From positions 1 through 64,000 of the IMG/VR virus record IMGVR_UViG_3300009148_000002: 64,000 nt of DNA; one strand, 5' to 3'. Origin of the DNA: a virus (lineage: Duplodnaviria; Caudoviricetes). How positions within the stretch are numbered: position 1 is the first letter of the stretch; each line of letters begins with the position of its first letter. Shown here piece by piece: positions 5,704 through 61,427 of this stretch. The notes below the pieces were generated by a model that was not told the DNA's origin, did not search any database, and saw only the letters and a program-made list of their open reading frames with translations. The position numbers and the translations under genes were made by a program.

Positions 5704-5720
5704 GCCCAACAAGGATTATC
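5704..5720 (-). other. attI-like site
   Basis: Minus strand GATAATCCTT-GTTGGGC, 18 bp from the intI start; no attC hairpin follows; position is canonical for attI. Confidence 0.7.
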
Positions 5721-5738
5721 AAGCTCCAGTCGTGTAAT

Positions 5739-6692: not shown

Positions 6693-7060
6693 ACGACGAA
6701 TCGACAACCCAGCCTCCAGTAGCGCCAAAGCCAAGGCGTCCACGCCAGCCAAAACACATCGTCATCGACGACACGGCGACACTCGAAAAATACGACGTGA
6801 TTCAGACATTCGGTACGAACGCGGGAATGCTTGGAATCGTCGTCGAGGTGCGCGAGTCCGACGTGAAGTGTTTTCATAAAACTCTGTCAGGCGAAGGCAA
6901 TCACTTCACCGTCGCGAAGGATAAATGCAAGAAGATCGGCACGAGCTTCATCCGCTGGAAGTCAATCGACAGCGGGCAGAAGCCATCAATTGGCCAGAGC
7001 AATGGCCAGCCGAGGATGCTTGCAAAAGCGCCAGCCTTCCCGCCCGATGTGGTTTCGTAG
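6689..7060 (+). CDS. Hypothetical protein
   Basis: ATGA-coupled to intI; C-terminus may run through a decayed attC. Confidence 0.7.
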   Translation: MNDESTTQPPVAPKPRRPRQPKHIVIDDTATLEKYDVIQTFGTNAGMLGIVVEVRESDVKCFHKTLSGEGNHFTVAKDKCKKIGTSFIRWKSIDSGQKPSIGQSNGQPRMLAKAPAFPPDVVS

Positions 7061-7065
7061 CCAAT

Positions 7066-7524
7066 ATGGAAAACAACGATAAGGCGCTGAGGTTGAAAAT
7101 TGCGGAGCTAGAGGCCGCTCGCTCTCAAGCTCTTGAACTGCTGGAGCAGCTATTACCAATAACATGGTCGGAAGATTGGGATGCTGATTTCGTGCGTGAC
7201 AAGCTGGAATGCGCCATCAGGTTTTGTGGTGGCATGGTTGAGAAGCCGAACATAACTGCCAGTCGCAAGGCGTCCGCAACTGCCAAGCGAAGCGGCAGTT
7301 GCGCTCCAGTGAATGGTTCTGAGGCGTCAAAGTGGAGATCCTGTTCTCGCTGGCCTGTCACTCTCGGCTTCCTCGAAAACCAACTGACGACCGACACGCA
7401 CGATACCCGCGAGCAAGCGGACGCCGTGTGCCAAATGCTCAAACGCGATGGCCTCGGCGGTGAAGGCCGAATCTTTCCAGAAGAAACATGGATTGAGGAG
7501 GTCAAGCCTCAGAAAAATTCTTAA
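7066..7524 (+). CDS. Hypothetical protein, probable in-frame fusion across an attC
   Basis: Start reassigned to ATG 7066; PNITASRK...PVNGS is encoded by attC 7245-7322. Confidence 0.65.
   Translation: MENNDKALRLKIAELEAARSQALELLEQLLPITWSEDWDADFVRDKLECAIRFCGGMVEKPNITASRKASATAKRSGSCAPVNGSEASKWRSCSRWPVTLGFLENQLTTDTHDTREQADAVCQMLKRDGLGGEGRIFPEETWIEEVKPQKNS
7245..7322 (-). other. Degenerate attC site
   Basis: Minus strand TCAGAAC-CATTC-ACT[G]GAGCGCAACTGCC...GGCAGTTGCG...AGT-TAT-GTTCGGC; L'-side pairing is imperfect. Confidence 0.6.
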
Positions 7525-7526
7525 AC
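7509..7526 (-). other. attI-like site with mutated core
   Basis: Plus strand AAA-AATTC-TTAAAC; GCCTCAGAAA (7506) matches the inverse of GTTCTGAGGC (7316) at 9/10. Confidence 0.5.
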
Positions 7527-7600
7527 CGACTCTGTAGCTTATCCATGACCACGGTTCAGACCATGAAAACCCCGCGCAAAGAAAAAGCCATCCGAATCAC

Positions 7601-7690
7601 CTGCAACCGCAGAAGTCAGCGAGGCCGGGCCGCTGACGCAACCAAAACATGAAGGCGAATCCCGGCCTTCGCTGGACTGAATTGTTCGAC
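7601..7690 (-). other. attC site (90 bp)
   Basis: Minus strand GTCGAAC-AATTC-AGT[C]CAGCGA[A]GGCCGGG...CCCGGCCTCGCTGACT-TCTGCG-GTTGCAG. Confidence 0.85.
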
Positions 7691-7692
7691 TT

Positions 7693-7917
7693 ATGGCTAT
7701 ACTGAAAGGCATCGGAAAACCCGGATCAGGGGCATACCTGCCTGTGAAACTGTATCGTGAATGGATCGCCAAAGTGCGCCGTCACGATCAACTCGAAGCG
7801 GCGCTTGAACGCATCGCAAAGGGTGAAACCGAAGTGCCCGGCCTCGCGCCGGAGTTTTACGGCCACGCCAAAGCCATCGCCGAGAAGGCTCTACGTGTTA
7901 AGTCGAACAATGATTAA
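7693..7917 (+). CDS. 74-aa cassette-borne protein (antisense)
   Basis: Bounded by the perfect 10-bp inverted repeat GTTCGACTTA (7684) / TAAGTCGAAC (7899). Confidence 0.7.
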   Translation: MAILKGIGKPGSGAYLPVKLYREWIAKVRRHDQLEAALERIAKGETEVPGLAPEFYGHAKAIAEKALRVKSNND

Positions 7918-7919
7918 AC
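7902..7919 (-). other. attI-like site
   Basis: Plus strand AAC-AATGA-TTAAAC has the same spacing as AAC-AAGGA-TTATC next to intI. Confidence 0.55.
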
Positions 7920-16692: not shown

Positions 16693-18066
16693 TCAGGCTG
16701 GAGCCGTCTGCTTCACTGACGCAACCGCCTTGGCAACGACGGCCTTCTTCACCTTCTGCCGTGCCGCAACAATAACGTGAATCATCGGTGCTCTCACTAT
16801 CATGGCATCGCTCGCCACGATGAAGTATTTCGAGAGTTCGGCCCTCCACCATTCGGCATCTTTCTGAATCAGGTGCGCGTTTCGCCCATCCGCTAGGAAT
16901 TTCTTGGACGGAGCCATGTTGATGATGAAGTAGCCGACGCGCTTGACGCAGCGTTTCAAGTCGGACAGCACGTATTCGAGTTTGTCTGGCTCAATGTGTT
17001 CGAGCACGTCGCTGCAAACCACAAGATCGGCAGGGCGCGGCGGTTCTTCCTTGCCGGGGATACATGGGTCGAATTCCCAAATTGGCCAGGGTAATGCCTT
17101 AGCGAGCATTCCTTTTCCGCAACCAAAATCAAGGACACTTAACACCGGACACTCATCCGTCTTCAGCTTCTCAACGAGCTTGATAACCGTCTCCGCATGT
17201 CGCCCGCCGCCAATGCCGTAGCAAATGTCATCCGCGTGGAGCTTCTTGTTGAGTTCGCAATAGTCAGAGGAAATCAGCGTCGGCTTGCTGAAGCTCACGA
17301 AGCCTTTCTTGTCATTCTTGCGAACGTAGTTGCGGGCGAGATGTTGAACCAACCCTTCGCCGTAAAACTTCACCGTCACGTCCGGCATCATGTCCAGTTC
17401 GTGAAACGTGTTCTTGGCAGGCTCCAACATGGCGGGCGTGGTGATGTATTCCTTGCCGTCGTATTCGAGCTTGTAAGAATCCTTCGGCTGGTTCGGATGC
17501 TCGGCGGCGTGCTTACCGTATTTCTCACTCTGGTTGCCGTCCATGCCAAAGACATGCAGATCGGTGAATCCAAGGAAGCGGGCCATCGTCAGCGTGCGAA
17601 CGCCTGCGCTACAGCCTCCAGTTAGCGCGTGCTCTCCGTGAGGCAACAAGCGCAACCCATCTTCACTTGTGTCGAAGATGTGCCAGAGCTTCACGTTGTA
17701 ACCAGACAGATGCTCGATGAGCTTGGGTGAGCACGTCGAGGCGATGAGATATTCGGTTTCCTTTTGCGGCTGCCCAATGAGCTTGATTTTGTGTTCTCGC
17801 GGGTCAACGTCGATGTGCCACGTCGGAATGATTCCACGATCCACAAGAAACTTGTGAGCACCGGAACAGGTCAGCACGTACTTGAACTTCTTGATTTCCT
17901 CCCAAGTGTCGTTGAGCGATGGCCCGAAGTTGACGAGCGCAATCGGATCGGTGCGTTTTTCCAAGTGCGGCGTGACGCGCTCTTTGACGCGGGCGGTGTT
18001 CGATTTTATCTGTAAATCACGAAAATCGTGGGACACGCAGTAACCGATCTTTAGCGGTTCTTCCAT
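16693..18066 (-). CDS. DUF115/MptE-like domain fused to a class I methyltransferase
   Basis: NFGPSL...TCSGAH...DVDPR...GGCSAG...FGMD in the N-half; VLDFGCGKG and CSDVLEHIEP in the C-half. Confidence 0.8.
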   Translation of the reverse strand: MEEPLKIGYCVSHDFRDLQIKSNTARVKERVTPHLEKRTDPIALVNFGPSLNDTWEEIKKFKYVLTCSGAHKFLVDRGIIPTWHIDVDPREHKIKLIGQPQKETEYLIASTCSPKLIEHLSGYNVKLWHIFDTSEDGLRLLPHGEHALTGGCSAGVRTLTMARFLGFTDLHVFGMDGNQSEKYGKHAAEHPNQPKDSYKLEYDGKEYITTPAMLEPAKNTFHELDMMPDVTVKFYGEGLVQHLARNYVRKNDKKGFVSFSKPTLISSDYCELNKKLHADDICYGIGGGRHAETVIKLVEKLKTDECPVLSVLDFGCGKGMLAKALPWPIWEFDPCIPGKEEPPRPADLVVCSDVLEHIEPDKLEYVLSDLKRCVKRVGYFIINMAPSKKFLADGRNAHLIQKDAEWWRAELSKYFIVASDAMIVRAPMIHVIVAARQKVKKAVVAKAVASVKQTAPA

Positions 18067-18095
18067 CGTCAGCCGCTTATCTTTAGTTGTTTCGC

Positions 18096-19271
18096 TCACG
18101 ATATTATGGTTCCCCAAGAACGGGCTTTGACGGGAACGGCTGCAACCTCAGCGAATTCCGCCTCAATCATAGTGCACATAAGGCTCTTGTCTGGATTGGC
18201 GTCCGTGGCGAAGCCGTAGCGAAAGCGGATGTTGTTGAAGTTGCCCGCGCCGGAAAGCGTCCACGCTCCGCCAGTCGGGGCGAGAGCGTAATGCTTGCGC
18301 TTGTAAATGCCTGTCGTCGTTCCAGCCACGGCAGTCCCATCGTAAACAGTATCCACCGTGCCATTGTCGTTTAATTTGAAAATCTCATCGGATGCGCCCG
18401 TGCCTGCGGCGAAGAATTCTGCTATCACTTCCACACCCCTAGGCGCAACAGTCGGCGTGCTGATGCCGGATGCCGGCCCGTACACGCACTCGACGTAATC
18501 GGTGACGTTCGGCGGGGCCACGATCCGAATGTGATCGTCCGTGTCAGGCGTCGTATCATCGAGCGGAACTTCATCAACGAGTTGATAGGCTGTGGTGGTG
18601 GCATTGGTGATGTCCGTGGTGGTATCGCCTCGCCGGAAGTCCGCCGCGCTAGCCACATTGTGCGTGCCGTCGGATGTGGGCACGAAATGGTTCACGTAAC
18701 CCGCGCCGATTGGATAGTCAGCGGCGGTGCCGGACAAAACAAAATCATCAATAAAATAATCCGCCGTTATGTTGTTGCACAAGAATGCCAGCGAGGCTGC
18801 CGCAATGCTAACTGAAGTCGTCTGCCCTAAATCCGTGCCATCAACTTTTGCATCGAATGCTTTTACACCGGCTGTCATATCGAACTTGAAATCAATCCGA
18901 TACCACACGCCGGTCGTAACGCTCACTCCTGACGCACCAAACGAAGCGGGGTTGCTACCAGTACCGCAGTAGAGTTTTGTATCCGATTGATTAAATGCCA
19001 ACCCGCCAATGAGAGATTGACCGAACAAGTAAGTATTCGCGCTGGGGAGTGTGGCAAAGCGGATGTAAAACCGCCCAACTGAAACTGTCGGAACAGTAAT
19101 GTTAACATTTGCTGTTTTGGAAGAGCCGGAAGGATTGACACGCAGGGATCGGTTGCCCGTGCGAACGGTCGTCGTAGATATAGCGCAGTCAGTCGCCCAA
19201 TGTTGGCCTACAGCCCCGCCAACCGAACCAAGCTGGCCGCATTCAAATCCGCAACACAGGACAGAATTCAC
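18096..19271 (-). CDS. Putative virion/tail protein, beta-sandwich (lectin-like)
   Basis: CGFE N-terminus, WYRIDFK...VDG, YFIDDFVL; GTG start at the edge of the HNH insertion. Confidence 0.55.
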   Translation of the reverse strand: MNSVLCCGFECGQLGSVGGAVGQHWATDCAISTTTVRTGNRSLRVNPSGSSKTANVNITVPTVSVGRFYIRFATLPSANTYLFGQSLIGGLAFNQSDTKLYCGTGSNPASFGASGVSVTTGVWYRIDFKFDMTAGVKAFDAKVDGTDLGQTTSVSIAAASLAFLCNNITADYFIDDFVLSGTAADYPIGAGYVNHFVPTSDGTHNVASAADFRRGDTTTDITNATTTAYQLVDEVPLDDTTPDTDDHIRIVAPPNVTDYVECVYGPASGISTPTVAPRGVEVIAEFFAAGTGASDEIFKLNDNGTVDTVYDGTAVAGTTTGIYKRKHYALAPTGGAWTLSGAGNFNNIRFRYGFATDANPDKSLMCTMIEAEFAEVAAVPVKARSWGTIIS

Positions 19272-24874: not shown

Positions 24875-27800
24875 TTAGGCGAAAATCCTTCTGCGCCGCC
24901 TGCGTCTGATCGTAGCGAGCCTGCTACCGCGCCGCAGCGACGAACGCGGGCGTATGCGCCGACTTCGACCGAGCAGGCTACGCCCACGCGAAAGAACGCG
25001 GATGCCGCCAGCGGCCACGCCTGAGCCAAGGCTGATCCTTTGCGATGGTCCTAGCGAAAGGCTTGGAAAGCTCGTGCCAGACGCGACGGGCGTTGCGCCT
25101 ACGGAGGCCAGCGCCGTATTGCTGGCATTGCGATACGCCTGCTGGACAACTTTCCGCGCTTCCGCTTCAGGCAATCCAGACACATCGACGTTTTGCAATG
25201 CCGCCTTGAAAGCTTGCCCTCGCGCCACGACGTATTTCTCAAGTTCTTCCGGTTTCATTGGCCGGATCGTGCCGTTGAAATCGTAGCCTTTGTTTCGTCC
25301 CACTTCCGGCGTCGAGTAGTTCGCCATGAAGATTTGCTGATAGGCATGATTGGCTTTCAGATCGTCTTCTGAACCAAAACCTACACCGCCAGTCAACACC
25401 TGCAAAACCCGCGTGGCCGCATTCGGATTCACCAACGGATCACCGAGCGAATTAACGCGCTGATGCGGACTCCACGGATTTGGTGTGAGCAGTTCAAGCA
25501 CCGTCGCAGTGCGCGTGTCCATGCTCGTGCCTAACATGCGCGAGACTTCCTGCCATGCCGGTATGCCGGGCAGATACGGCGCGGCGAGCGAGGCAACCGC
25601 CTTGTTCAGCTTGAAATCACCGTAATCAGAGAATGACTGAATCGCTCCCGTGGCCGTCCGACCGCCTGTGAACGCACCGTAGATGCCTTGGGCGATGACG
25701 CCAAGCATGTCACCCAACCCGACCGGCTTAACCTTTCCGGCGATTGTTCCTTTGCGCTTTGCCTCGGCGTCGAGTCGCGCCTGTTCGCGAGCTTGGTTGG
25801 AATAGAGGCGCTGAATCCCGCCAATCATGTAGAGCGGCGAGGCGACGAAGCTAAACGGCGACATCTGGATCGGATACGCAGCCCACTGCTTGCCGTCATC
25901 GGACAGAAACTCAACCGTGTTCAGCTTGTGACCACCCGCAATGAACTTTTCCTTTTCCTCTTTGTCCTTCGGATATTGCGTGTGAACGATCAGCTTGCCA
26001 GCCGCCGCTAGCGCAGTCAGGACGCCGATTGCCGCCAAGCCTTCGATAGCCTCGATGCGCCGCTGCCGGATATTGCGTTCGCCTTGATACCACGGTGAGT
26101 CGCCGAAGCCCCAACCGCCGAACAGCCCGCCGCCCATAAACGTCAGCATCCGGTTGGTTGCCGTGCCCATTGCGTTACCGAACGAGAACAGTCCGCCAAG
26201 CGGCACGCCACGCTCCTGAGCCGCCTTGCGGATACCTCCAATAGTCGAAGCAATGATACCTCCGACACCACCTGTCTCTGGTAAATTCCAACCGTAAAGC
26301 TCGCGCAACATCTGATTCTCAGCACGGAAATCCGTGGCGCTGCCGGTCGCCTTCTGCATTTGATCGTAAGTCGTGTTCAGCAGAATTGCCCAAGCATTCT
26401 TCTCAAGCTCTTTCTTGTCCGTTGGCAAGCCACGTTCCTCAGCACTGAGTCTGGCTTCTTCAATCGCCTGAGTCATGGCCACGCGAATGTTGCCGAAGAT
26501 TTCGTCCTCTACCATTTTGATCTGCGCTGCGTTCTTGCCTTGCGCACGCAATTCCGTAACAAGTTGCTGGCGCATCTCCTGCCACTCCGCACCGACGGCC
26601 TGTGCCACGTCCAGCGTAGCAGCCACGCGATAGCCAGCGCGAAGGATTGTAGCCGTTCGGATGGCTCGCGCTGCGGCCATGTTGCCTTTCGCCTCCAATT
26701 CATCCGCCTTGGCCAGCATTCTGTCGAAGATGCCGATGCTTTGTTTCATGCGGTCGAGTGTCTTTTGATCCGCCGCACCGTGGAGCGTTGCCTTCATTGC
26801 CCGCCACGTTTCCTTGAACGATTCGACGCTCGCCTTGGACATTTCCGTGAGAGATGCGTGTAAATCAGCCAGCGTTTGCCGGCTGAATCCACCATCCGCC
26901 GCCGCTCTTTCGAGAACGTGAGCAAGCGCACGGTTGGCACGGTTCAACGGGATGGAAACAATCCCGGCGTCCATGAACTGACGGACAAGGAAACCGAACT
27001 TGAAAAGCAGGTTCGCTGCCGCCACTTCATCGGCAGCCTTCGCGTTATTCTTGGCCACGGTCGGATTCGTCAACCATTGCGACCACTTGATCGGCATGGA
27101 CCAGCGCGACCAATTGGCCTGAATCTTCTTGATAAGCTCTAAGCGTTGAGTTTGGGTTGCTGCCTCTGCCGCGCTGGTTGCCTTGGCCACATCACCGCCC
27201 GCATCGGCGAGTTGACGTGGTGATGGTGTTCGCAGCCTGATTTCTTCCTCAGCCCAAGCTTTAAGTTGCGCCTTCTGCTCCGGCGTCGGCACGGTCCACT
27301 TGTTCGCACGGGCGTTTTCTTCCAAGGCGCTCTCGGCGTCGAAATATCCCGCACGCACACCGCGCTCAATCGCCTGCCAGAGCGTCTTGCCTTTCTTGAT
27401 CTCGCGCTTCTGCTGCGGGCCAAGCTCGGCCTTCACCTTATCCAGAGCTTTCGTCCGCGCCCTGAGCAGCGGCCCCGGAGATTCCTTGGTTCCTTCAAGT
27501 GATTTGTAGATGAGGTTCGCCAGTTCATCCGCTTGATCGCCGGTTAACCCAAGGCGCTTCACCAGTGCATCAGAAATGTCCTGTTTGATCTCGTTGAGAT
27601 TGTAGCGCGGCGATTCCAGAATCGTGTTCATCAATTCCGTCATCGAAGGCAGGAGCTTTCGGATGGATGAATTCTCGGCAGCGCGTTGGAGTAGTTCTGG
27701 ATCGCTCAGGCGAGGATCGTCGAGTAATCCGGCGTTAATCTTCTCACGCAAGGAACGCAGTTTGTCCGGGTCTGTGACGCTCGCGGCCCTCTCAGCGAAC

Positions 27801-30800
27801 ACAGCATCGCGAATGTCCTGCCGTCTGTTCGCCAGTTGTTCGCCGATTTGATCTCTCACCAATCTGTTAACCCGCTCAATCGTTTCCGGCGTGGCGTTCT
27901 TCAGGTTCATGTTCGCCGCCAAGTCGGCTGAGTAGGCGTCAAACACGCGCTGCACTTCCGAATCTGGAGACTTGGCAAGCTCGCGGAGATTGATTCTCGT
28001 CTCGGCTGGCTTCGCGATTGGCTTGCCGAATTGCAAACCTTGAAAATCAGCGGCGAGCAATCGCTGAGTCAGCTTCAAAGTGATGGGTGAATAACCGAGA
28101 GCGATGTCGTCTCGAATACGTTTCCAATGCGCGAACTCAGGCAAGAGCAAGCCGCGCTCAATTTGCTCCAAGGAAGGCTCAACATCGCCACGGCCAATCA
28201 TCGCCTTGTCGTCTTCGCTAACTTGAGGATCAGCCAGCGCCACTTTTCGGCCAGCATTCAGTTCGGCTTCCTCAACCGCACGCGCAATCATGTCTGTCAG
28301 CCGCGCATCGGCACCCGGCGTCACCATGCGTAGCACCTTTTCTAAAGGCGTCATTTTATCAGATGGCTTCAGTGTCGGATTGCCCAACTCAGCAAGAATC
28401 TTGTTGAACGCTTCTTCGACATCGGCGGTGCGGCCAAGCTTCTCCAACGTCGGCTTAATCTTCGGCTTTAACGCCTGCTGAATCTTGCGGTAAAGCCGTC
28501 CACCTTGATCGCGCTCGTTCGCCTGAAGCAAACGCTGAACGGTTTCTTGAAGATGCAACGGATTCAGCGCCGTCTCGATTTCTTTGGCCGTGAAGAACTC
28601 TCGGAATGCGGTGACGATCTTTTGGAGAGTTTCCGAAATCACTTCGCCGCCTAGATTGTCATGCCAGATGCTTCGCAAGTGGATGTCCAGATTCATCGCG
28701 ATTTCTGACAGGCTGGCGCTGAACTGATTAAGCTCGCCTAGTTGTGTGCCGCGTCGGCTTGCTTCGCTCTGAGCGAGTCGGAACAGGCGGTAGCGAGTCG
28801 GTGTCGCCATGTCCACAAGTGCGCTGTTCGGATTCTTGAAGTTCTCGCGAATCGTGTTGAGCAACATGCCGACTGGCCTCTCCGTAGCAGTGCCTTGCTG
28901 CTTCAACTGCTGCTCAAAGGCATCGGCCAGACGGTTGCCTTCCGCCGTCATGTCGAAGCCCGTGCGCGGCAGAAAGTAAATGCTCTGCTGTTGCCCGCCT
29001 TCTTCCTTCGGCTTGGTGTAAGTCTCAAGCCTAATGTCTTTGAAGCCCGCAGCACGCAAGGCTTCATCTGCGTTCGAGATGTTCTGAGCGGTTCGCTCTG
29101 GCGTGATGCCTTCCTTGCTAGCGACTGTGAATACACTGTTAAGAACTTTGGTTTCGACACCCGGCTTCGCTGCTTCCACAACAGGCTCAGGCTCGGCAGG
29201 AGGCGGCGGAGGCGCGGCGGGTGGAACGGCAGCCGGTTGAGCCTCAGCCGTGGTGGGCAAAGCTGCTGTCGCGGGTGGTGGTGTTTCGGCTTGAGGTTTT
29301 GGTGCGAGAGTTATGTCGTCAGCGCCAGAGGCGTACTCAGTTCTCCCAAACTTAGTTTTAACCTCAAGCTCTCTTTGCCCCGTGCTCGGATTTAACTTAT
29401 CACCAACAACGGTTCCGACGATTCTGTGTCTTATAGTGCCCGGTTCGGTAAATTCAATAACCGTTCCGACTGGCATAAGCTCAATCAGTTCGCGAACCTT
29501 CGGCGCAGCTTGGGAAGCGGGCGGTTCGACGGGCGTGCGCTCGCCTGAGATGCTTGCTTGAACTGACTCACCTTCAGCAAGGATGTTGTTTCCGGTGCGT
29601 CTCGCCTCTCGCTGAACTGCCAGATATTTGCGCCTGATCGAATCAGAAATCTTTTGCTTCAACGCGAAGTGCGCCGCATCGAAAGCGGCTTGTTTATCTC
29701 CACGTTGGGCAACCCATTCCTTCGCGCTGAAATCTTTCGAGCGTGCGGCATCCGCAAGCTGATTCACGCCAGTTGTCCATTTTGGTTCGTAGCCAGTCGT
29801 CTTCGCCTGCTCCGTCTTCCCAAGCTTCTCCAAGTCCGTGCCCAACCATTCGCGGAGCTTGGTTTCGTCGATTTTGTCGAAATCCTCAACGTTGCCGCGC
29901 AGATGTGCTATGACATTCGCAATAGCAGTCGATATTCCACGGCCTTTCAACAAGAGATCAATTCCGATTTGAAGTGCGCTGTTCCATGTGTCCGTCGCAA
30001 TCGACTTGAAAATCTCCGGGTGCGGAAACGAATACGTCCCCGGCTTGTCATCCTTCTTCACCTTCCAGCTTTCCAGCTTGGCGATGAGTGAATCAATTGT
30101 CCCTGACTGTTCAGTTAATGCACCAGCCGACCATCGCTCCCTTTCAGACGCAGACATTTCTTCAATGTTTCTTGCCTGCCGCTCTCCAACCACGCCGACA
30201 GTTTCTTCTGGTGTTAAAAATTTGCCAGCTTTAGTCGCGAAACCGGATTCCAAATCGCGAGAGCCAGCGTTCGGGATTGTGTCCAAAACCAAACCGTGAG
30301 TCGGCTGTCCGTACCAAACCTCTCCTGTTTTTTTATCCCTCATTGCAGCCGATGTCGGCGCTGTTTCTTTCTGCTCCGCCGCTGGATTTCGTAGGATGCC
30401 GCGACGCCCGACGCTACCGCGTTCTTCCGCCCCTTGGCCTTGAAGCTGTGTATCAGTTCCGCCGCGTTGGCGTTCCGTGCTTTGTTCGACGTTCCTTTGC
30501 TGAGTGGCATTGTATTGCTCCTGTGTGGGTATGGCTGGCAGTTTGAAGCCGAGAGATTCCAGCGTGTTGCCCGTGAGTGTCGAGTCCTTCGTGAACTTGT
30601 CCACGTCCTGAGTGAGATTGAACAACGGCAATGCTTTTCCATCCGCCGTCTCCTGATAGCCGATGAATTTCGCCGGAGCCTCTTGCCGGGCTTCGTACTG
30701 CTTCGCGCTGGAAATATCACTCGCCGCCCGTGTGGCCGAGCTGAAGAATGGCGAACTCACCGCCGCCATCACGCCCGCTTCCAACACTCGCGGCCAGTTC

Positions 30801-31720
30801 TTGCTGAACGTAGCGTCGTAGGTTTTGTCCGTGAACTTGTTCGCCGCGATGTCGAGGATTTCCTGAATCGCTTCCGTCGATCCTTCCCATCCCGCCGCCT
30901 TGGGCACTTCGCGAAACGCCCGTTTCACCACTTGGCCCCACACCAGCTTCTTCATCGGTGCTTCCGCCGCGTCCAACACGCTCCCGAATATCTTGAATCC
31001 AGACAGCGTATCCAGCGCCGCCTTGGCACCGCCAAACGCCAGCGCAGTCCACGGCGCATCTTGGCCGGTTTCTTCCTGAATGCCGCCGTATGTCTCGCCG
31101 ACGTTCTGCGCTGCACCCGATGCCGACACCGTGCCGACGGTGAGCAGATTCGCCAGACGCGGCCCCCAACCAAGCGCCGTAGCGCCCACTCGCGCCGCCC
31201 CACCCGGCCCGATCATCGAAAGCATGTTCGGCACCTGTTGCGCCGTCCGCGTGGCCACGTAGTTCAGGAAGTTCGACGGCGACTCGACAGCTTCACCGAA
31301 GTTTTCCACCTTCTCATCCGGGATAGCCTTGGCGATGTCATCAAACTTCTGGCCTTGATCGTGCAGATATTTCTTGAATGAATCCAAGCCGGTGAGTGTC
31401 GCAGCAAGTTCGCCTGCCTTGAGCAGCGTCTTATCCAGATTCGCCGCCCCGCGCACGAACGAACGGCCAACTTCCGTGCTGGTAATCGCTCCAATAACCG
31501 GATTCTGCTGCGCTTGGAAGGATTGTATCTGTGCCTGACGCCGACGCTCGCGTTCCGCACGGCTGATGGTAGGAAAAAGCGGCGCATCGACTCTGGCCGG
31601 CTGCGGAAGCTCGGAAGAACTCAGTAGATTCGGCCCGCCATCGTCTCCGTCACCCTCAACACCAAACGCCGATGGCGGTTTCAACGCCAGCAATTCGTCA
31701 TCGGTTAAAGTCAAGGCCAC
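24875..31720 (-). CDS. 2281-aa protein, probable internal virion/DNA-ejection protein
   Basis: Size, helical Ala/Gly-rich composition and position after other ejection-like genes; no family assigned. Confidence 0.6.
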   Translation of the reverse strand: MALTLTDDELLALKPPSAFGVEGDGDDGGPNLLSSSELPQPARVDAPLFPTISRAERERRRQAQIQSFQAQQNPVIGAITSTEVGRSFVRGAANLDKTLLKAGELAATLTGLDSFKKYLHDQGQKFDDIAKAIPDEKVENFGEAVESPSNFLNYVATRTAQQVPNMLSMIGPGGAARVGATALGWGPRLANLLTVGTVSASGAAQNVGETYGGIQEETGQDAPWTALAFGGAKAALDTLSGFKIFGSVLDAAEAPMKKLVWGQVVKRAFREVPKAAGWEGSTEAIQEILDIAANKFTDKTYDATFSKNWPRVLEAGVMAAVSSPFFSSATRAASDISSAKQYEARQEAPAKFIGYQETADGKALPLFNLTQDVDKFTKDSTLTGNTLESLGFKLPAIPTQEQYNATQQRNVEQSTERQRGGTDTQLQGQGAEERGSVGRRGILRNPAAEQKETAPTSAAMRDKKTGEVWYGQPTHGLVLDTIPNAGSRDLESGFATKAGKFLTPEETVGVVGERQARNIEEMSASERERWSAGALTEQSGTIDSLIAKLESWKVKKDDKPGTYSFPHPEIFKSIATDTWNSALQIGIDLLLKGRGISTAIANVIAHLRGNVEDFDKIDETKLREWLGTDLEKLGKTEQAKTTGYEPKWTTGVNQLADAARSKDFSAKEWVAQRGDKQAAFDAAHFALKQKISDSIRRKYLAVQREARRTGNNILAEGESVQASISGERTPVEPPASQAAPKVRELIELMPVGTVIEFTEPGTIRHRIVGTVVGDKLNPSTGQRELEVKTKFGRTEYASGADDITLAPKPQAETPPPATAALPTTAEAQPAAVPPAAPPPPPAEPEPVVEAAKPGVETKVLNSVFTVASKEGITPERTAQNISNADEALRAAGFKDIRLETYTKPKEEGGQQQSIYFLPRTGFDMTAEGNRLADAFEQQLKQQGTATERPVGMLLNTIRENFKNPNSALVDMATPTRYRLFRLAQSEASRRGTQLGELNQFSASLSEIAMNLDIHLRSIWHDNLGGEVISETLQKIVTAFREFFTAKEIETALNPLHLQETVQRLLQANERDQGGRLYRKIQQALKPKIKPTLEKLGRTADVEEAFNKILAELGNPTLKPSDKMTPLEKVLRMVTPGADARLTDMIARAVEEAELNAGRKVALADPQVSEDDKAMIGRGDVEPSLEQIERGLLLPEFAHWKRIRDDIALGYSPITLKLTQRLLAADFQGLQFGKPIAKPAETRINLRELAKSPDSEVQRVFDAYSADLAANMNLKNATPETIERVNRLVRDQIGEQLANRRQDIRDAVFAERAASVTDPDKLRSLREKINAGLLDDPRLSDPELLQRAAENSSIRKLLPSMTELMNTILESPRYNLNEIKQDISDALVKRLGLTGDQADELANLIYKSLEGTKESPGPLLRARTKALDKVKAELGPQQKREIKKGKTLWQAIERGVRAGYFDAESALEENARANKWTVPTPEQKAQLKAWAEEEIRLRTPSPRQLADAGGDVAKATSAAEAATQTQRLELIKKIQANWSRWSMPIKWSQWLTNPTVAKNNAKAADEVAAANLLFKFGFLVRQFMDAGIVSIPLNRANRALAHVLERAAADGGFSRQTLADLHASLTEMSKASVESFKETWRAMKATLHGAADQKTLDRMKQSIGIFDRMLAKADELEAKGNMAAARAIRTATILRAGYRVAATLDVAQAVGAEWQEMRQQLVTELRAQGKNAAQIKMVEDEIFGNIRVAMTQAIEEARLSAEERGLPTDKKELEKNAWAILLNTTYDQMQKATGSATDFRAENQMLRELYGWNLPETGGVGGIIASTIGGIRKAAQERGVPLGGLFSFGNAMGTATNRMLTFMGGGLFGGWGFGDSPWYQGERNIRQRRIEAIEGLAAIGVLTALAAAGKLIVHTQYPKDKEEKEKFIAGGHKLNTVEFLSDDGKQWAAYPIQMSPFSFVASPLYMIGGIQRLYSNQAREQARLDAEAKRKGTIAGKVKPVGLGDMLGVIAQGIYGAFTGGRTATGAIQSFSDYGDFKLNKAVASLAAPYLPGIPAWQEVSRMLGTSMDTRTATVLELLTPNPWSPHQRVNSLGDPLVNPNAATRVLQVLTGGVGFGSEDDLKANHAYQQIFMANYSTPEVGRNKGYDFNGTIRPMKPEELEKYVVARGQAFKAALQNVDVSGLPEAEARKVVQQAYRNASNTALASVGATPVASGTSFPSLSLGPSQRISLGSGVAAGGIRVLSRGRSLLGRSRRIRPRSSLRRGSRLATIRRRRRRRIFA

Positions 31721-31786: not shown

Positions 31787-31814
31787 TTGACAAGCAATCG
31801 TATGATGGTATGCT
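31787..31814 (+). promoter_or_regulatory. sigma70-type promoter with extended -10
   Basis: TTGACA-16-TATGCT with TG at the extended -10 position; predicted +1 near 31821. Confidence 0.7.
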
Positions 31815-31820: not shown

Positions 31821-31952
31821 GTTCTTTGAGAGCGGGGGAGTCAATTGCTTGCATGAACGTGATGCAGGTCGGAGTGCAAGACGCCGACGGCAAAATTGTC
31901 ACGGCTGCATTAAAAACAGCCAGCTTGAGTAACCGCCCCGCTCTCAGGGAAC
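31821..31952 (+). ncRNA. Candidate structured ncRNA, unit 1
   Basis: 17-bp closing stem GTTCTTTGAGAGCGGGG / CCCCGCTCTCAGGGAAC around three hairpins. Confidence 0.6.
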
Positions 31953-31961: not shown

Positions 31962-32052
31962 GTTCTTTGAGTGCTGGTGGCTAAGTTGCTACTCCATCGC
32001 GGTAGGTTCGTCTCAATGCCTCCAACGCGATAGCCGCCAGCGCTCAGAGAAT
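31962..32052 (+). ncRNA. Candidate structured ncRNA, unit 2
   Basis: 22-bp closing stem GTTCTTTGAGTGCTGGTGGCTA / TAGCCGCCAGCGCTCAGAGAAT with G-U pairs. Confidence 0.6.
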
Positions 32053-52362: not shown

Positions 52363-53871
52363 ATGCCCCTGCATCCCGACGGCTACTGGATACCCAATCT
52401 CTCACCCAAGCAGATAGCCATTCAAAACAACCGAGCGCGTTATCAGTTGGTTTCTGGCCCGCGTTTGAGCGGCAAGTCGTGGGGTGTTGAGCACGCCGTC
52501 GTGAAGCACCTGTGGATTACGAAGAATGCTCGCATGGGCGCGTTCGCTCGCACGATCAAGAGTGCAAAAGTGGGTGGTTCTTACGACGATCTAACAAAGC
52601 TCATCATTCCAGAGTGGCTATCTGCGAATTTAACCGGCGTGAACGCGAGCATCCGCTTCGAGTACTCGATTCCACCAAAACAGATGGGTGATACGCGGAC
52701 GAACTACTTCAAAATACGCAATTATTGGGGCGGCGAATCTGAGTTCTACCTTTTCTCGTTGGATTACGACGACGACATTGAAGAAAAGGTGAAAAACACG
52801 CGGTTCTCCGGCTTCTGGTTTATCGAGCTAACGAACTTCGACAAGCGGGAAGTGTTTTCCGCAACCGTCCAGCAGTTGCGTATGCCTGGATTGCCGTGGA
52901 AAGAGCACCTGTGGATAGCGGACACGAATCCCGACTACATACTCGGAGAGGATAGCTGGATTTACAAGCTGTTCTACGAAAAACAGGGCTACGATCCGGT
53001 GGTGGACAAAGAGGAAATCGAAAATCTGAGCGTCATCGAAGTGATGATTGACGATAACCCGTTCCTTGAGCCACAGGCCATCAGGAGCCTCAAGGCTAAC
53101 TACGCGTACAGCCCGGAAAAGACGGCGGCTTACATCTTTGGCAAGTGGGTTAAGGGAATGCGCGATGGACATTTCTCAGATGTGCTCTTGCCGAACATCC
53201 ATTTTCAAGGTGACGTGAGCAGCAACGATTCAGCGAAGTGGCAAATCATCGTGCCCACAGAGCAGACTATGGAACTAATGACAGGTTGGGACTTGGGCGA
53301 TGTCAACCACTCGGCACACATCGCTCAGAAGCGCCCGATTGATAACGACGAATACGCTTACGATTTCATCGACGAACTGTTCTGCATTGATCGGCAAGTC
53401 AGCATTCGAGAATTCACCGAGGCGTTCTTGGAGCGCATGGATCATTGGGAAAAATTCATGCGCGAGGCGTTTGGGCGAACAGTGTTTCGATGGCGGCACT
53501 GGTCTGACACGTCGGCGTTCAGCTACAAAAGCGCGGTTGGCGGCGATGAAGAAAAGATCGTGCGCAATGTTTCAAAAGGGCGGATCACTCTGTTGGGAAT
53601 CGACAAGCGAAGTGTCACTGGCCGCGTGGATCAAGTGAGACGGCTGCTACACGAGCAGCGCATATTTGTGTCTGCCAACCTAACGCACACAACCGTCATG
53701 CTGAAGACTCTCTACAAAGGCAAAAGCAAGTTGGACTTTATTCTGCCGGCCACGCTGAAGCATTCGTTTGACTCGTTCAGCTACCTGCTTCGCGGCGAGG
53801 AACCTCACGATCTTGAGCGCGGCCTTCCTCAGACGGAGCAGCCGGCGAGGTTGGTGCTGGTGCCGGCGTAA
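52363..53871 (+). CDS. terL: Terminase large subunit
   Basis: Walker A GPRLSGKS, Walker B FWFIELT, coupling motif DTNPD, nuclease GWDLG and KHSFDSFSY. Confidence 0.9.
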   Translation: MPLHPDGYWIPNLSPKQIAIQNNRARYQLVSGPRLSGKSWGVEHAVVKHLWITKNARMGAFARTIKSAKVGGSYDDLTKLIIPEWLSANLTGVNASIRFEYSIPPKQMGDTRTNYFKIRNYWGGESEFYLFSLDYDDDIEEKVKNTRFSGFWFIELTNFDKREVFSATVQQLRMPGLPWKEHLWIADTNPDYILGEDSWIYKLFYEKQGYDPVVDKEEIENLSVIEVMIDDNPFLEPQAIRSLKANYAYSPEKTAAYIFGKWVKGMRDGHFSDVLLPNIHFQGDVSSNDSAKWQIIVPTEQTMELMTGWDLGDVNHSAHIAQKRPIDNDEYAYDFIDELFCIDRQVSIREFTEAFLERMDHWEKFMREAFGRTVFRWRHWSDTSAFSYKSAVGGDEEKIVRNVSKGRITLLGIDKRSVTGRVDQVRRLLHEQRIFVSANLTHTTVMLKTLYKGKSKLDFILPATLKHSFDSFSYLLRGEEPHDLERGLPQTEQPARLVLVPA

Positions 53872-59353: not shown

Positions 59354-59422
59354 CGGTTTTATATGCAGACAGTTACAGAGAGTTCTTTTTCATTTTTACG
59401 GGCTGTTGGTGGGCTTGTCGTT

Positions 59423-59659
59423 CTACAGCACCCGCTCGCTGTGTTTGATTTCGACGCATCGGATTTTGGGTTTTTCCAGCCAGTCCTTAAAGAACCATCT
59501 GGCATATTCAAGTGCCTGCGATTGGTTGTCGCGCTGCCCGACGAGGCATTCCCATTTGGCGTTCGGTTTCTGCCACTCGACCGCGTATGCTGTAGAACAC
59601 TTCATGGAGCGAACGGCGACCCGCGCCGTTCGAGAGTTGGTCTTGGATTTCTTGCTCAT
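59423..59659 (-). CDS. Cassette-borne hypothetical protein (antisense to its attC)
   Basis: ATG lies in the attC loop; cassette cores GTTCTACAGCA (59420) / TGCTGTAGAAC (59588) are a perfect 11-bp inverted repeat. Confidence 0.7.
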   Translation of the reverse strand: MSKKSKTNSRTARVAVRSMKCSTAYAVEWQKPNAKWECLVGQRDNQSQALEYARWFFKDWLEKPKIRCVEIKHSERVL

Positions 59660-59695
59660 ACATTTTTCTCGCCGTCGCTCATGGCGGCGTTGTAA
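59592..59695 (+). other. attC site (104 bp)
   Basis: GTAGAAC-ACTTC-ATG[G]AGCGA[A]CGGCGA...TCGCCGTCGCTCAT-GGCGGC-GTTGTAA. Confidence 0.88.
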
Positions 59696-59765
59696 AACTT
59701 CATTGACAAAGGCTATCACCGTCGGCGGCGGAGTCAAACATTTTTCGCGCAAATGATTTTGTTGC

Positions 59766-59793
59766 TTGACAATCACTGCGGCGTTGATACCTT
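59766..59793 (+). promoter_or_regulatory. sigma70-type promoter with extended -10
   Basis: TTGACA-16-TACCTT with TG at the extended -10 position, 7 nt before ATG 59801. Confidence 0.6.
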
Positions 59794-59800
59794 CGCGTGA

Positions 59801-60088
59801 ATGACAGCAGCCGAAAAGAGAATCGAGATCGCAGAGTTGGATGAATGGGTCAGAGGTTCTGTTGACTCTGTGTGGTGGTCGAAGCTCTGGAAAGACAGTC
59901 TCAGTTACACTCACGCAACGCAGCACGATCTTCCAGACTACCTCAACTCCCGCGACGCGATTGTGCCGGTGCTTGAGAAGCAGCCATTGGGCATCCGCTT
60001 GTGGTTTATCGAGAACACGGACATTTTCACAACGCCCGAAGAACTGTGCGACGCGCTGATTCGTGAAACCGGCAAGTGGAAAGACTAA
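59801..60088 (+). CDS. Hypothetical phage protein (ABA-sandwich-like?)
   Basis: RIEIAEL...LPDYLNSRDAI motif. Confidence 0.5.
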   Translation: MTAAEKRIEIAELDEWVRGSVDSVWWSKLWKDSLSYTHATQHDLPDYLNSRDAIVPVLEKQPLGIRLWFIENTDIFTTPEELCDALIRETGKWKD

Positions 60089-60099
60089 CAAAATGAGAT

Positions 60100-60295
60100 G
60101 TTCTTTGAATGTGAATCGGACGGAGTATTCAACGGCCAGAAATGGCGGTAAACTTTTCCGTGAGTTTGTCACGGACAACAACGGGCTTGCTAGCTACCTG
60201 CCCGTTTGGACAAAGCCAACAAGTTGCGCTGATTCGATTTCAGCGGGGCGGAATTGCTCAGAGGTACGACGAACTCCGATTCACATTCAGCGAAC
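60100..60295 (+). ncRNA. Candidate structured ncRNA, unit 3
   Basis: 21-bp closing stem GTTCTTTGAATGTGAATCGGA / TCCGATTCACATTCAGCGAAC; internal GCCA-GAAA-TGGC, CCGTGA/TCACGG, AACGGGC/GCCCGTT, GCTGA-TTCGATT-TCAGC. Confidence 0.65.
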
Positions 60296-60401
60296 ACCAA
60301 ACAAAATGGTTGACTCCAAAATCAGGTTGGGTATGTTGGTTGCGTTCGGATGCTGGAGTGAAAACCAGCTAACTGTAAGTCTCGAACGTAAGACCACTTT
60401 T

Positions 60402-60468
60402 GGCCGTTCAGTCATGCGAAGCCGCGAGGCTCGCACCGCAGTTAGCGGTTTTTCACGACTGAGCGGCC
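60402..60468 (+). ncRNA. Candidate three-way-junction RNA domain
   Basis: GGCCGTTCAGTC / GACTGAGCGGCC closing two hairpins, one with a GCGA tetraloop. Confidence 0.5.
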
Positions 60469-60628
60469 TTTCCATTTTTAAGGCACCGAACCGTGAAACG
60501 GCTTCATGCCATACGGTCGCCGGAACATGCGCGGCTCCTTCGCGAAGGATGCTGCGGCTAGGGCACGCGAGGAAACAAACATCTCACCGGCCAACGTGGA
60601 AGGAAAACGACAGTGCTTTGAACTGCTG

Positions 60629-60807
60629 GGCCTCGTGGTGCAATGTAAAGACACGGGCTAGTGTAAAGATACGGGTGTCGGCGTGCTGCTGCCCCGGCTT
60701 GCGGACATTTCGCCGCAAGACTCATCGTTGTGATGAGGTTTCCAGCCTGCCAAACGGGACACAACACCGATGCGGCTTGCGAGTTCAAATCCCGCCGAAG
60801 GCCGCCA
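60629..60807 (+). ncRNA. tRNA-like RNA with large structured insertion (not a canonical tRNA)
   Basis: 5' GGCCTCG-TG-GTG...CAC; T-arm GCGAG-TTCAAAT-CCCGC; 3' CGAAGGCC-G-CCA; no 7-nt anticodon loop. Confidence 0.6.
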
Positions 60808-60914
60808 GTTCAGAGCATTGCGGTTTTCCTTTGCTCTCTGACTTCTTTCGATACCCCTACTCTAAGGGGTTGGGGTTTCTTTCTTCTCTCGTTTCGTTTT
60901 AATTATTATCCAGC

Positions 60915-61343
60915 ATGAAGCGCCTGACAAACAAACAACCTATGAAATCCATATACCTAAACGTAAAGAAACAACACATCGACGAGTCAACTAAAAAGGA
61001 CTCGAAACACTGCATGATCGCCGACGCCATTCGTTCGCGATTTGAACAGGCGAAGTACATCAAAGTGGACACGCAATCCATTCGGTTCACTGACTTAAAA
61101 ACCGGCAAGCGTTATCAGTTCTTCACTCCGACGAAAGCACAGGCTGCGATTCTGGCGTTTGATCGCGGCGACGCAGTTAAGCCGTTCCACTTTCAACTTG
61201 TGGACGGCACACAGAGGCCGATGGGTTGGCAGGCAACGCACCCAAATTGTAATCGCAAAGGCAAGAAATACCGCAAGACAGGATTGAAGCGAATCGTGGC
61301 GAAACGCGAACGCGAGTTTGGGCTTAGAATGCTAACCGCGTGA
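60915..61343 (+). CDS. Basic hypothetical protein
   Basis: Clean 142-aa ORF after the ncRNA cluster. Confidence 0.7.
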   Translation: MKRLTNKQPMKSIYLNVKKQHIDESTKKDSKHCMIADAIRSRFEQAKYIKVDTQSIRFTDLKTGKRYQFFTPTKAQAAILAFDRGDAVKPFHFQLVDGTQRPMGWQATHPNCNRKGKKYRKTGLKRIVAKREREFGLRMLTA

Positions 61344-61427
61344 TCCACCCATTCTCTTTGGGCGGTAAGGTGCTGTTTCGTTTCCGTGTCCTTACCGTCC
61401 GACAATGATGAAAAGCATTAAGACTGT

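What the first reader, a model, noticed from the sequence alone, without database searches (positions are those of the whole stretch)
60100..60870. 770-bp ncRNA cluster of stem-enclosed modules with covarying stem base
Seen: unit 3 (60100-60295), domains 60307-60367 and 60402-60468, GNRA-type hairpins, and unit 4, whose stem GTGCTTTGAACTG/CAGTTCAGAGCAT (60613/60806) carries a compensatory T-A to G-C change relative to GTTCTTTGA/TCAGNGAAC in units 1-3. Inference: a polycistronic RNA precursor organised like an rRNA/tRNA operon with processing stalks. I recognise no Rfam family.
Basis: partly seen in the sequence, partly recalled or inferred. Interest (0 to 1): 0.76.

Follow-up and report, generated by a model that had tools for sequence, protein, structure and literature searches.

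The report
Phage structured RNA inside an open frame
The region holds a real, strongly covarying structured RNA gene of a widespread but undescribed phage family, and, unusually, one reading frame across it is kept free of stop codons although the protein it would encode is not conserved.

Summary
Window 60100-60870 contains a stem-clamped module (U3, 60099-60296) and a separate RNA gene of about 0.54 kb (about 60343-60885). The RNA gene has its own TTGACT/TATGTT promoter, a conserved core, a long clamp helix whose 5' strand resembles boxA, a tRNA-like insert, and a terminator-like tail.

Relatives occur only in phage and metagenome contigs. Rfam 15, ARAGORN and 50,697 cultured phage genomes gave no match. 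On a sequence-only alignment of 12 members, 97.9% of cells pair, 21 of 44 pairs carry double changes, and 0 of 500 shuffles reach this.

Modules are exchanged between phages: U1 matches a unit in L053 and the U3 cargo matches the L002 insert.

The 279-codon ORF is not a conserved protein. Substitutions are even across codon positions, conserved bases are read in different frames in different lineages, and AlphaFold gives pLDDT 42. Yet the frame is open in nearly all members embedded in operons. In 6 of 9 lineages it ends in an ATGA overlap with the next gene, and it starts upstream of the RNA's own promoter -10 box. Two members lack it; one of them stands alone.

I read it as a pass-through frame over an RNA gene. 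The RNA's function is unknown; processing or antitermination through the boxA-like clamps is inferred.

Other first-stage notes of this scan flagged the same stretch of this genome; none on other DNA.

The parts
31787..31814 (+). Promoter-like site (TTGACA, 16-nt spacer, TATGCT) that would place +1 at the first base of U1
   Evidence: Read directly from the sequence. Not run through the promoter scan.
31821..31952 (+). U1: clamped module at the 5' end of an early transcript. Closing helix GUUCUUUGAGAGCGGGG/CCCCGCUCUCAGGGAAC.
   Evidence: It is 73% identical to a unit in L053 (6429-6557, minus strand) that lies directly upstream of that phage's core; shuffle maximum 57%.
31962..32052 (+). U2: 91-nt module closed by a helix of about 23 bp. 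It ends 2 nt before the ATG of gene 32055.
60099..60296 (+). U3: clamped module with 22-nt arms. Its interior has a T-loop-like hairpin GCUGA-UUCGAUU-UCAGC.
   Evidence: (I3). Its cargo is 73% identical to the insert that L002 carries in the main clamp (L002 6413-6609), with compensatory changes.
60310..60337 (+). Internal sigma-70-type promoter: TTGACT, 16 nt, TATGTT
   Evidence: The same -35 (TTGACA/T/G), spacing and a -10 of form xAxxTT are kept in 10 of 11 lineages aligned (L053 has TTGCGT/TATCCT). This includes L123, where the upstream gene is divergent.
60342..60484 (+). 5' domain: conserved GCGUUCGG, leader hairpin CUGGAGUGAAAACCAG (60353-60368), and long hairpin 60402-60468
   Evidence: The 60402-60468 hairpin keeps pairing through double changes in L001 and L133 (sequences).
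60485..60598 (+). Conserved core: small optional sub-domain (60489-60523), covarying UNCG-type hairpin (60530-60556), and helix 60562-60571/60583-60592
   Evidence: Alignment A5 and pair counts. The hairpin has 8 of 12 pairs with double changes. The sub-domain is absent in L123.
60599..60625 (+). 5' strand of the main clamp: AAGGAAAACG, a 2-nt internal loop, then the boxA-like AGUGCUUUGAACUG
   Evidence: (I1).
60626..60807 (+). Cargo of the main clamp. It is a tRNA-like module: acceptor-like stem 60628-60635/60796-60803, T-arm-like hairpin 60779-60795, then G + CCA at 60804-60807, with about 140 nt of hairpins in between.
   Evidence: Read. Homologous cargo in L053, L001 and L005. ARAGORN with long introns calls only the L005 cargo at default stringency. 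The cargo is absent in L096 and L123.
60808..60832 (+). 3' strand of the main clamp: GUUCAGAGCAUUGCGGUUUUCCUUU
   Evidence: The clamp helix is 96.6% paired, with 7 of its 20 pairs showing double changes.
60833..60899 (+). Pyrimidine-rich 3' tail with a terminator-like hairpin (60853-60876) followed by a U-rich run
   Evidence: It was not detected by the terminator scan, so its function is inferred.
60093..60902 (+). Stop-free frame (269 codons from the ATG, 280 stop to stop) over U3 and the RNA gene. Read as a pass-through ORF, not a conserved protein.

Best explanation
Shown: window 60343-60885 is a gene for a large structured non-coding RNA. It belongs to a family found so far only in phage and metagenome contigs.

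The family has these parts:
- a strong sigma-70-type promoter;
- a variable 5' domain;
- a nearly invariant core;
- a two-part clamp helix (AAGGAAAACG/CGGUUUUCCUU, then a boxA-like GNNCUUUGA paired to UCAGAGNNU);
- a pyrimidine-rich tail.

The clamp is an insertion site for exchangeable cargo. The cargo is tRNA-like in this window, L053, L001 and L005, a U3-type module in L002, other modules in L003 and L004, and nothing in L096 and L123. U1, U2 and U3 are free-standing clamped modules of the same kind.

Shown: selection acts on base pairing, not on an amino-acid sequence.

Inferred, about 60% likely: where the RNA gene sits inside a translationally coupled early operon, one frame is kept free of stops. 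Ribosomes leaving the upstream gene restart at an RTG placed 8 nt into the promoter. They translate through the RNA gene and stop at an ATGA overlap that starts the next gene. Transcripts from the internal promoter begin downstream of that start codon, so they stay untranslated and fold.

Inferred, about 35% likely: the boxA-like 5' strands recruit host NusB/NusE. This would protect the untranslated transcript from Rho and hold the 5' strand near RNA polymerase until its partner is made, as proposed for rRNA operons (PMC8632103). The duplexes of 20 bp or more would then be cut, for example by RNase III, to release the cargo.

The trans-acting role of the released RNAs is unknown.
For: RNA structure. 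A MAFFT alignment of 12 members with 44 proposed pairs is 97.9% paired, and 21 pairs have changes on both sides. None of 500 shuffles reaches this, and sliding the partners by 1-3 columns gives 40-53% paired with at most 4 such pairs. Invariant G-U pairs fix the sense strand as +. Folding z-scores are -6.0 and -6.5.

Own transcription unit. The -35/-10 is conserved in position in 10 of 11 lineages aligned (window site). L123 stands alone between a divergent and a convergent gene.

Family. The core is nearly identical across contigs whose flanking genes are unrelated. A profile of the ORF translations finds 99 clusters.

Module exchange.

Not a conserved protein. Variable core columns by codon position are 17/47, 12/45 and 19/47. 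GCCGGAACAUG is read as AGTW or CRNM, and ACCGGCCAAC as HRPT or TGQQ. AlphaFold gives pLDDT 42.5 and pTM 0.13. There are no Pfam or PHROG hits (Pfam columns).

Open frame under selection. In ten members one frame has 0 stops while the other two have 3-11. Even dinucleotide-preserving shuffles, which are conservative, give an open frame over the whole span in 17/20000 (window), 161/20000 (L096) and 85/20000 (L009). Of 4 lineages found by DNA alone, 2 are open.

Coupling. The stop is an ATGA overlap with the next start in 6 of 9 lineages, and the start RTG(A) lies 8 nt after the first base of TTGACA in 5 of them and 9 nt in L096. The two members without an ORF lack that RTG.

boxA. GTTCTTTGA matches 8 of 9 specified positions of GYTCTTTAANA (PMC5725501). 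U1 starts at the predicted +1 of an early transcript.
Against: - No transcript, ribosome-profiling or processing data exist. The transcription start, the terminator and any cleavage are inferred, and the terminator scan found none.
- The ORF-bearing members found through protein searches are biased towards open frames. The unbiased sample is only 4 lineages.
- L053 has a downstream same-strand gene but no open frame, so the rule is not absolute.
- In the main clamp, boxA positions 2-3 vary and covary with their partners. This fits pairing constraints better than NusB/NusE recognition.
- The host, and therefore its boxA, is unknown. 12 sampled TGTTCTTTGA sites in 5 bacterial genomes were not next to rRNA.
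- No RNA-processing or Nus-related gene was found among the window proteins scanned.
Confidence: 0.6

Rival explanations
1. Cis-acting leader or antitermination element, like lambda nut, HK022 put or the rrn leader. The RNA modifies the polymerase that makes it, so that early-operon transcription reads through terminators and resists Rho. The modules are not released, and the cargo is structural ballast.
For: U1-U2 form the 5' leader of an early operon, with the boxA-like motif at +1 to +9. In L053 the whole RNA is the 5' leader of the next gene, with no terminator between them. The leader hairpins carry GAAAA-type loops close to the 5' end. The RNA sits in early operons that also carry recombination genes, and a terminator-like tail precedes downstream genes. 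The rrn precedent is described in PMC8632103.
Against: Known put and nut elements are about 70 nt or less, whereas this RNA is 0.4-0.8 kb with exchangeable tRNA-like inserts. L123 is followed by a convergent gene, so there is nothing downstream to antiterminate. boxA positions covary with their partner strand.
Confidence: 0.2
2. A translation-related mimic. The tRNA-like cargo, with an acceptor-like stem, a T arm and an encoded CCA, is matured by RNase P and 3' trimming. It then acts on tRNA enzymes or the ribosome as a decoy, a Y-RNA/YrlA-like adaptor or a tmRNA-like factor. The scaffold is only its expression platform.
For: A 7-bp acceptor-like stem, a GGUUCGAAUCC-type T loop and N-CCA lie directly before the clamp strand in the window, L053 and L005. 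ARAGORN calls the L005 cargo a tRNA with a 54-nt insert. U3 and L002 cargo also carry a covarying T-loop hairpin. L004 has an RNA ligase gene directly downstream.
Against: The cargo is dispensable, since L096 and L123 have none, while the core is what is conserved. There is no tRNA or tmRNA call at default settings in the window and no YrlA, Y RNA or tmRNA match in Rfam. No Ro/Rsr or RtcB gene was seen among the proteins scanned.
Confidence: 0.1
3. An ordinary protein-coding gene whose mRNA happens to be structured. The 269-residue product is the functional entity.
For: The frame is open in nearly all embedded members, is packed tightly between neighbours and is called as a gene in 99 clusters. 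The C-terminal stretch is hydrophobic in most members.
Against: There is no third-position excess. The same conserved nucleotides are read in different frames in different lineages. The U3-type module is read in two different frames in the window and in L002. AlphaFold gives pLDDT 42.5 with no secondary structure. No family hit was found. L123 and L053 keep the RNA but not the frame. The hydrophobic tail is simply the U-rich terminator region read as Phe and Leu.
Confidence: 0.04

Closest known systems
GOLLD and ROOL RNAs (large ornate RNAs, often phage-borne; PMC12286853, PMC5737381)
   Same: Hundreds of nucleotides long, multi-domain and found in phages. Part of the RNA is variable and can hold or adjoin tRNA-like sequences. 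Function is unknown.
   Different: No covariance-model match even at E<=10. The core sequence is different. The insertion site is clamped by a boxA-like helix. A stop-free frame is maintained over the RNA. Whether it forms multimers is untested.
rRNA operon leader and spacer: boxA plus long-range RNase III processing stalks (PMC8632103, PMC5725501)
   Same: A GYUCUUUAA-like motif lies at the 5' side of a long-range helix that encloses a functional RNA. A tRNA-like element sits inside one stalk. U1 is promoter-proximal.
   Different: Here the boxA-like bases are themselves paired and covary. Position 8 is G rather than A. Nus binding and RNase III cleavage are untested. The enclosed RNAs are 50-190 nt, not rRNA.
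Lambda nut and HK022 put processive antitermination RNAs
   Same: Located in early operons of temperate-type phages, just downstream of a promoter. There is a boxA-like element and a hairpin with a GAAAA-type loop.
   Different: This RNA is 5-10 times larger, has modular inserts and in L123 is a stand-alone unit with nothing downstream. No N-like protein was identified.
P1/P7 c4 and P4 CI RNAs (from my own knowledge: small RNAs cut out of early-operon leaders by RNase P)
   Same: Structured, partly tRNA-like RNAs embedded in a phage early transcript and, in those systems, released by processing.
   Different: No match to the Rfam C4 family. The size and architecture differ. Target sites were not looked for.
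YrlA (bacterial Y RNA; PMC4201824)
   Same: A tRNA-like module closed off by a long stem formed from the RNA's flanks.
   Different: No Rfam match. No Ro/Rsr gene was found among the proteins scanned. The closing helix has a different conserved sequence.
Dual-function RNAs and tmRNA
   Same: A structured RNA that also carries a reading frame; tmRNA also pairs a tRNA-like domain with an ORF.
   Different: Here the frame spans the entire RNA of 200-290 codons and its product is not conserved. There is no ARAGORN or Rfam tmRNA call.

Membership tests
Any Rfam 15 family (including GOLLD, ROOL, OLE, HEARO, 6S, tmRNA, RNase P, Y RNA/YrlA, C4, 5S) | Covariance-model score at or above the family's gathering threshold | tested here: not met
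   0 matches in the whole window at gathering score. At E<=10 on 59700-61000 there were only two chance-level hits, NsiR1 at 15 bits and NPPA-AS1_3 at 13 bits.
tRNA | Cloverleaf with D, anticodon and T arms, as recognised by ARAGORN | tested here: not met
   0 genes in the window. With introns of up to 200 nt allowed, only the L005 cargo passes at default stringency. The window cargo gives only a different, partial call at 80% stringency. An acceptor-like stem, a T arm and CCA are present on direct reading.
tmRNA | tRNA-like domain plus a tag-peptide reading frame and pseudoknots | tested here: not met
   ARAGORN with -m found none. No Rfam match.
boxA / Nus-factor recruitment site | Match to the consensus GYTCTTTAANA (gamma-proteobacteria, PMC5725501) | tested here: inconclusive
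   U1-U3 have GTTCTTTGA, which matches 8 of 9 specified positions (G for A at position 8). The main clamp is GNNCUUUGA, with positions 2-3 covarying with their partners. The host consensus is unknown. 12 sampled TGTTCTTTGA sites in 5 bacterial genomes were not beside rRNA.
boxA / Nus-factor recruitment site | Binding of NusB-NusE and resistance to Rho | not testable with these tools
   Needs a gel shift and in vivo termination assays.
RNase III processing stalk | A duplex of about 20 bp or more formed by sequences flanking the released RNA | tested here: met
   U2 has about 23 bp, U3 has 22-nt arms at 91% complementarity, and the main clamp has 10 + 14 bp with a small internal loop.
RNase III processing stalk | Cleavage in vivo | not testable with these tools
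   Needs Northern blots or end mapping in rnc+ and rnc- hosts.
Protein-coding gene with a conserved product | Excess of third-position substitutions, one conserved frame, a family or fold | tested here: not met
   Variable columns by codon position are 17/47, 12/45 and 19/47. Frames switch between lineages. pLDDT is 42.5. No Pfam or PHROG hit.
Translated ORF in a coupled operon | Stop-free frame with start and stop overlapping the neighbouring genes | tested here: met
   0 stops in one frame against 3-11 in the other two, in 10 members. Shuffle frequencies are 0.0009-0.008. ATGA stop/start overlap in 6 of 9 lineages, and RTGA at the upstream junction. Translation itself is not shown.
Independent ncRNA gene | Own promoter and terminator, conserved independently of neighbours | tested here: inconclusive
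   The promoter is conserved in 10 of 11 lineages aligned, and L123 stands alone. The terminator is only terminator-like and is not called by the scan.

The most novel reading that the evidence does not exclude
A new class of large, modular phage RNA whose gene doubles as a pass-through reading frame. The same DNA gives a folded, untranslated RNA from an internal promoter. Read from the upstream promoter, it gives a stretch of mRNA that ribosomes must cross to reach the next gene. Evolution therefore keeps one frame stop-free across a covarying RNA structure while ignoring the peptide. The boxA-like clamp would be a general docking site in which phages swap tRNA-like and other RNA cargo.
Probability: 0.4. 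Interest if true: 0.85.

Novelty: new variant of a known kind. Interest (0 to 1): 0.78.

Why it matters
1. It adds a large, well-supported structured RNA family to the short list of ornate phage RNAs. At least 99 sequence clusters are currently filed as hypothetical proteins of 150-300 residues, so protein databases and phage annotations carry a systematic error here.

2. A clamp that accepts different RNA modules, some tRNA-like, points to a natural platform for expressing and exchanging small RNAs between phages.

3. I know of no precedent for a stop-free frame maintained across a covarying RNA without conservation of the peptide. If translation is confirmed, it shows how an RNA gene can live inside a translationally coupled operon without causing polarity. 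This is directly testable with pairing-preserving stop codons.

4. If the boxA-like strands bind Nus factors, phages would be borrowing the rRNA antitermination and chaperone machinery to fold and protect their own RNAs.

Tried and rejected
- Rfam at gathering and permissive thresholds: nothing.
- ARAGORN tRNA/tmRNA at default settings: nothing.
- blastn of 59700-61400 and tblastn of the terminase against 50,697 cultured phage genomes: no match.
- The search for related loci with the downstream 142-residue protein: no relative.
- PHROG and Pfam on neighbouring genes: only phrog_19191 (unknown function) and sub-threshold hits.
- 18-mer core scans: all 29 GTDB genome hits and most metagenome hits were chance or unrelated coding matches. 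The clamp pattern scan mostly hit an unrelated phage gene, L097-L130.
- Search for shorter ORF fragments carrying the core: none. On its own this is weak evidence, because gene callers rarely call short ORFs of this kind.
- Naive estimate that a 280-codon open frame has a chance probability of about 1e-5: replaced by dinucleotide shuffles, which give 0.0009-0.008.
- Integron attC, retron, DRT2-type template and 5S-like readings were considered from memory and dropped. The core-site consensus does not fit, no reverse transcriptase is nearby, and there is no covariance-model match.
- Testing whether TGTTCTTTGA marks rRNA leaders in five available bacterial genomes: 12 sampled sites were not near rRNA. 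My recollection that this is the Bacillus-type boxA therefore stays untested.
- Literature searches for the motif or for a described family of this kind returned nothing specific.
- One PHROG call failed on a mistyped frame and was corrected.

Full report
WHAT IS THERE

The window is the first 64 kb of a 74,992-bp virus record whose ends overlap. A terminase large subunit lies at 52363-53871.

Two further units with the same closing motif lie at 31821-31952 and 31962-32052. Other GTTCTTTGA-like sites in the genome are not closed by a stem.

Both loci fold far better than dinucleotide shuffles, with z = -6.0 and z = -6.5. Rfam 15 gives nothing at gathering score or at E<=10. ARAGORN gives nothing.

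RELATIVES

Translating the long ORF (60093-60902) and searching protein collections recovered five ORFs on metagenome contigs (loci L001-L005). A profile search later found 99 clusters at E<=0.001, almost all 139-297 residues long.

Scans for short conserved DNA strings added L009/L088 (the same lineage as L005), L053, L096 and L123. All 29 hits in 185,579 bacterial and archaeal species genomes were chance matches. Cultured phage genomes gave no match.

Flanking genes are mostly unrelated between lineages, yet stretches of 40-130 nt of the core are nearly identical.

THE RNA

The DNA alignment shows patchy conservation. There is a promoter, a short 5' motif GYGUUCRG followed by a hairpin, a variable 5' domain, an almost invariant core, a clamp and a pyrimidine-rich tail.

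The promoter is TTGACA (or TTGACT/TTGACG), a 16-17-nt spacer, and a -10 of form xAxxTT. It holds the same position in 10 of 11 lineages aligned; L053 has TTGCGT/TATCCT instead. The scan tool calls it in the window at 60310-60337.

In L123 the upstream gene is divergent and the downstream gene convergent, so there the RNA is a transcription unit of its own.

I used a sequence-only MAFFT alignment of 12 members (A5) and a structure taken from RNAalifold on the cargo-trimmed alignment.
- 97.9% of 522 cells form standard pairs.
- 21 of 44 pairs show changes on both sides.
- No shuffle of 500 reaches any of the five measures.
- Sliding the 3' partners by 1-3 columns drops pairing to 40-53%, with at most 4 such pairs.

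The hairpin at window 60530-60556 has 8 of 12 pairs with double changes and UNCG-type loops. The clamp has 7 of 20.

Invariant G-U pairs would be A-C mismatches on the other strand, so the RNA is read from the + strand.

MODULES

The clamp is an insertion site.
- L096 and L123 have no insert.
- The window, L053, L001 and L005 carry a tRNA-like insert. It has a 7-bp acceptor-like stem, a GGUUCGAAUCC-type T arm, and N-CCA immediately before the clamp's 3' strand.
- ARAGORN with long introns accepts the L005 insert as a tRNA with a 54-nt insertion. The others appear only at lowered stringency.
- L002 carries, in this same site, a module 73% identical to the interior of window U3 (shuffle maximum 55%).
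- Window U1 is 73% identical to a unit that in L053 sits just upstream of the core.
- L001 has an extra clamped unit before its core.

U1, U2 and U3 are therefore free-standing members of the same module type. U3 is not part of the conserved RNA gene.

THE ORF

The protein is not conserved.
- Variable core columns fall evenly on codon positions: 17/47, 12/45 and 19/47.
- The conserved GCCGGAACAUG is read as AGTW in some lineages and CRNM in others. ACCGGCCAAC is read as HRPT or TGQQ.
- The U3-type module is read in different frames in the window and in L002.
- AlphaFold with the family alignment gives pLDDT 42.5, pTM 0.13 and no secondary structure.
- No Pfam or PHROG family matches.

The openness of the frame, however, is not chance.
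- In ten members one frame has no stop across the RNA, while the other two have 3-11 stops.
- Dinucleotide-preserving shuffles are conservative here, because the real sequence is already depleted of stop triplets. They give an open frame over the full span in 17/20000 (window), 161/20000 (L096) and 85/20000 (L009).
- Of the four lineages found by DNA alone, two are open.

The frame is wired into its neighbours.
- In 6 of 9 lineages its stop is the TGA of an ATGA that starts the next gene.
- In five lineages its RTG start lies exactly 8 nt after the first base of TTGACA (9 nt in L096), usually as RTGA. The upstream gene then ends either at that TGA or at the TGA inside TTGACA.
- That start lies upstream of the -10 box, so RNA made from the internal promoter lacks it.
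- L123 (stand-alone) and L053, the two members without a long frame, also lack the RTG.

MY READING

The locus is an RNA gene. Where it is embedded in a translationally coupled operon, one frame is kept open so that ribosomes on read-through mRNA can cross it and restart on the next gene. This is inference; translation has not been observed. L053 has a downstream same-strand gene but no open frame, which shows the rule is not absolute.

WHAT THE RNA DOES

This is the weakest part. The clamp's 5' strand resembles boxA. GTTCTTTGA in U1-U3 matches 8 of 9 specified positions of GYTCTTTAANA (PMC5725501), and U1 begins at the predicted +1 of an early transcript.

In rRNA operons, boxA-bound Nus factors prevent Rho termination. 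They are also thought to hold the leader near the polymerase so that it can pair with its distant partner and form the RNase III stalk (PMC8632103). The phage clamps fit that picture, because they are duplexes of 20 bp or more around a functional RNA.

Several points count against it.
- In the main clamp, boxA positions 2-3 covary with their partners.
- The host is unknown.
- My recollection of a Bacillus-type boxA could not be checked. 12 sampled sites in five genomes were not next to rRNA.

A cis-acting antitermination leader and a tRNA-mimic role are kept as rivals.

VERDICT

The operon-like processing idea is plausible but untested. The ORF is neither an accident nor a conserved protein. 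The family is new to Rfam and to the papers I could search. Other first-stage notes of this scan had flagged the same stretch of this genome; none concerned other DNA.

Noticed in passing
window 24875-31720 (-): A 2281-residue ORF with no Pfam hit lies divergent from the U1-U2 promoter region.
   Followed up: partly
window 16693-18117 (-): A 474-residue protein combines an MptE-like domain (6-hydroxymethylpterin diphosphokinase-like, E = 3e-17) with a class I methyltransferase domain. This is an unusual pairing for a phage.
   Followed up: no
genome G000, first and last ~100 bases: The contig ends repeat the same sequence, and an imperfect tandem copy lies at the start. This is consistent with a circularly assembled or terminally redundant phage genome.
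   Followed up: no
L004 5290-6228: An RNA ligase gene (PF09414) starts in a 4-nt overlap with the end of the pass-through frame, and RecT lies directly upstream. In L131 and L096 a Rad52/Mgm101-like annealing protein lies directly upstream of the RNA.
   Followed up: partly
L004, L005, L131, L132, L133, L096 promoter regions: The junction TTGACANNRTGA carries a TGA in two frames and a start codon in the third. An upstream gene arriving in either of two frames therefore stops here, and translation can restart in the third.
   Followed up: partly
window 60489-60523: The sub-domain GAACCGUGAAACGGCUUCAUGCCAUACGGUYGCCGG can be drawn as an H-type pseudoknot: ACCGU/ACGGU crossing CGGC/GCCG. L096 and L131 (CCGC/GCGG) and L133 (CGGG/CUCG) give one compensatory change for each stem. 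It is missing in L123. It shares short strings (GUGAAACG, CAUGCC, GCCGAAC-like) with 5S rRNA, but there is no covariance-model match.
   Followed up: partly
L097-L130 (except L123): The clamp pattern AAGGAAAACGNCAGNNCTTT also occurs at the start of a conserved gene of about 300 codons in roughly 30 large IMG/VR phage contigs (80-166 kb). It is unrelated to the RNA family.
   Followed up: no
window 5034-7919 and 59420-59695; genome 66532-68500: Other first-stage notes claim an integron with attC cassettes, and a solo Cas7-like gene with a pentamer-periodic array. I did not check them. 59423-59659 (-) is a 78-residue ORF with no PHROG hit.
   Followed up: no
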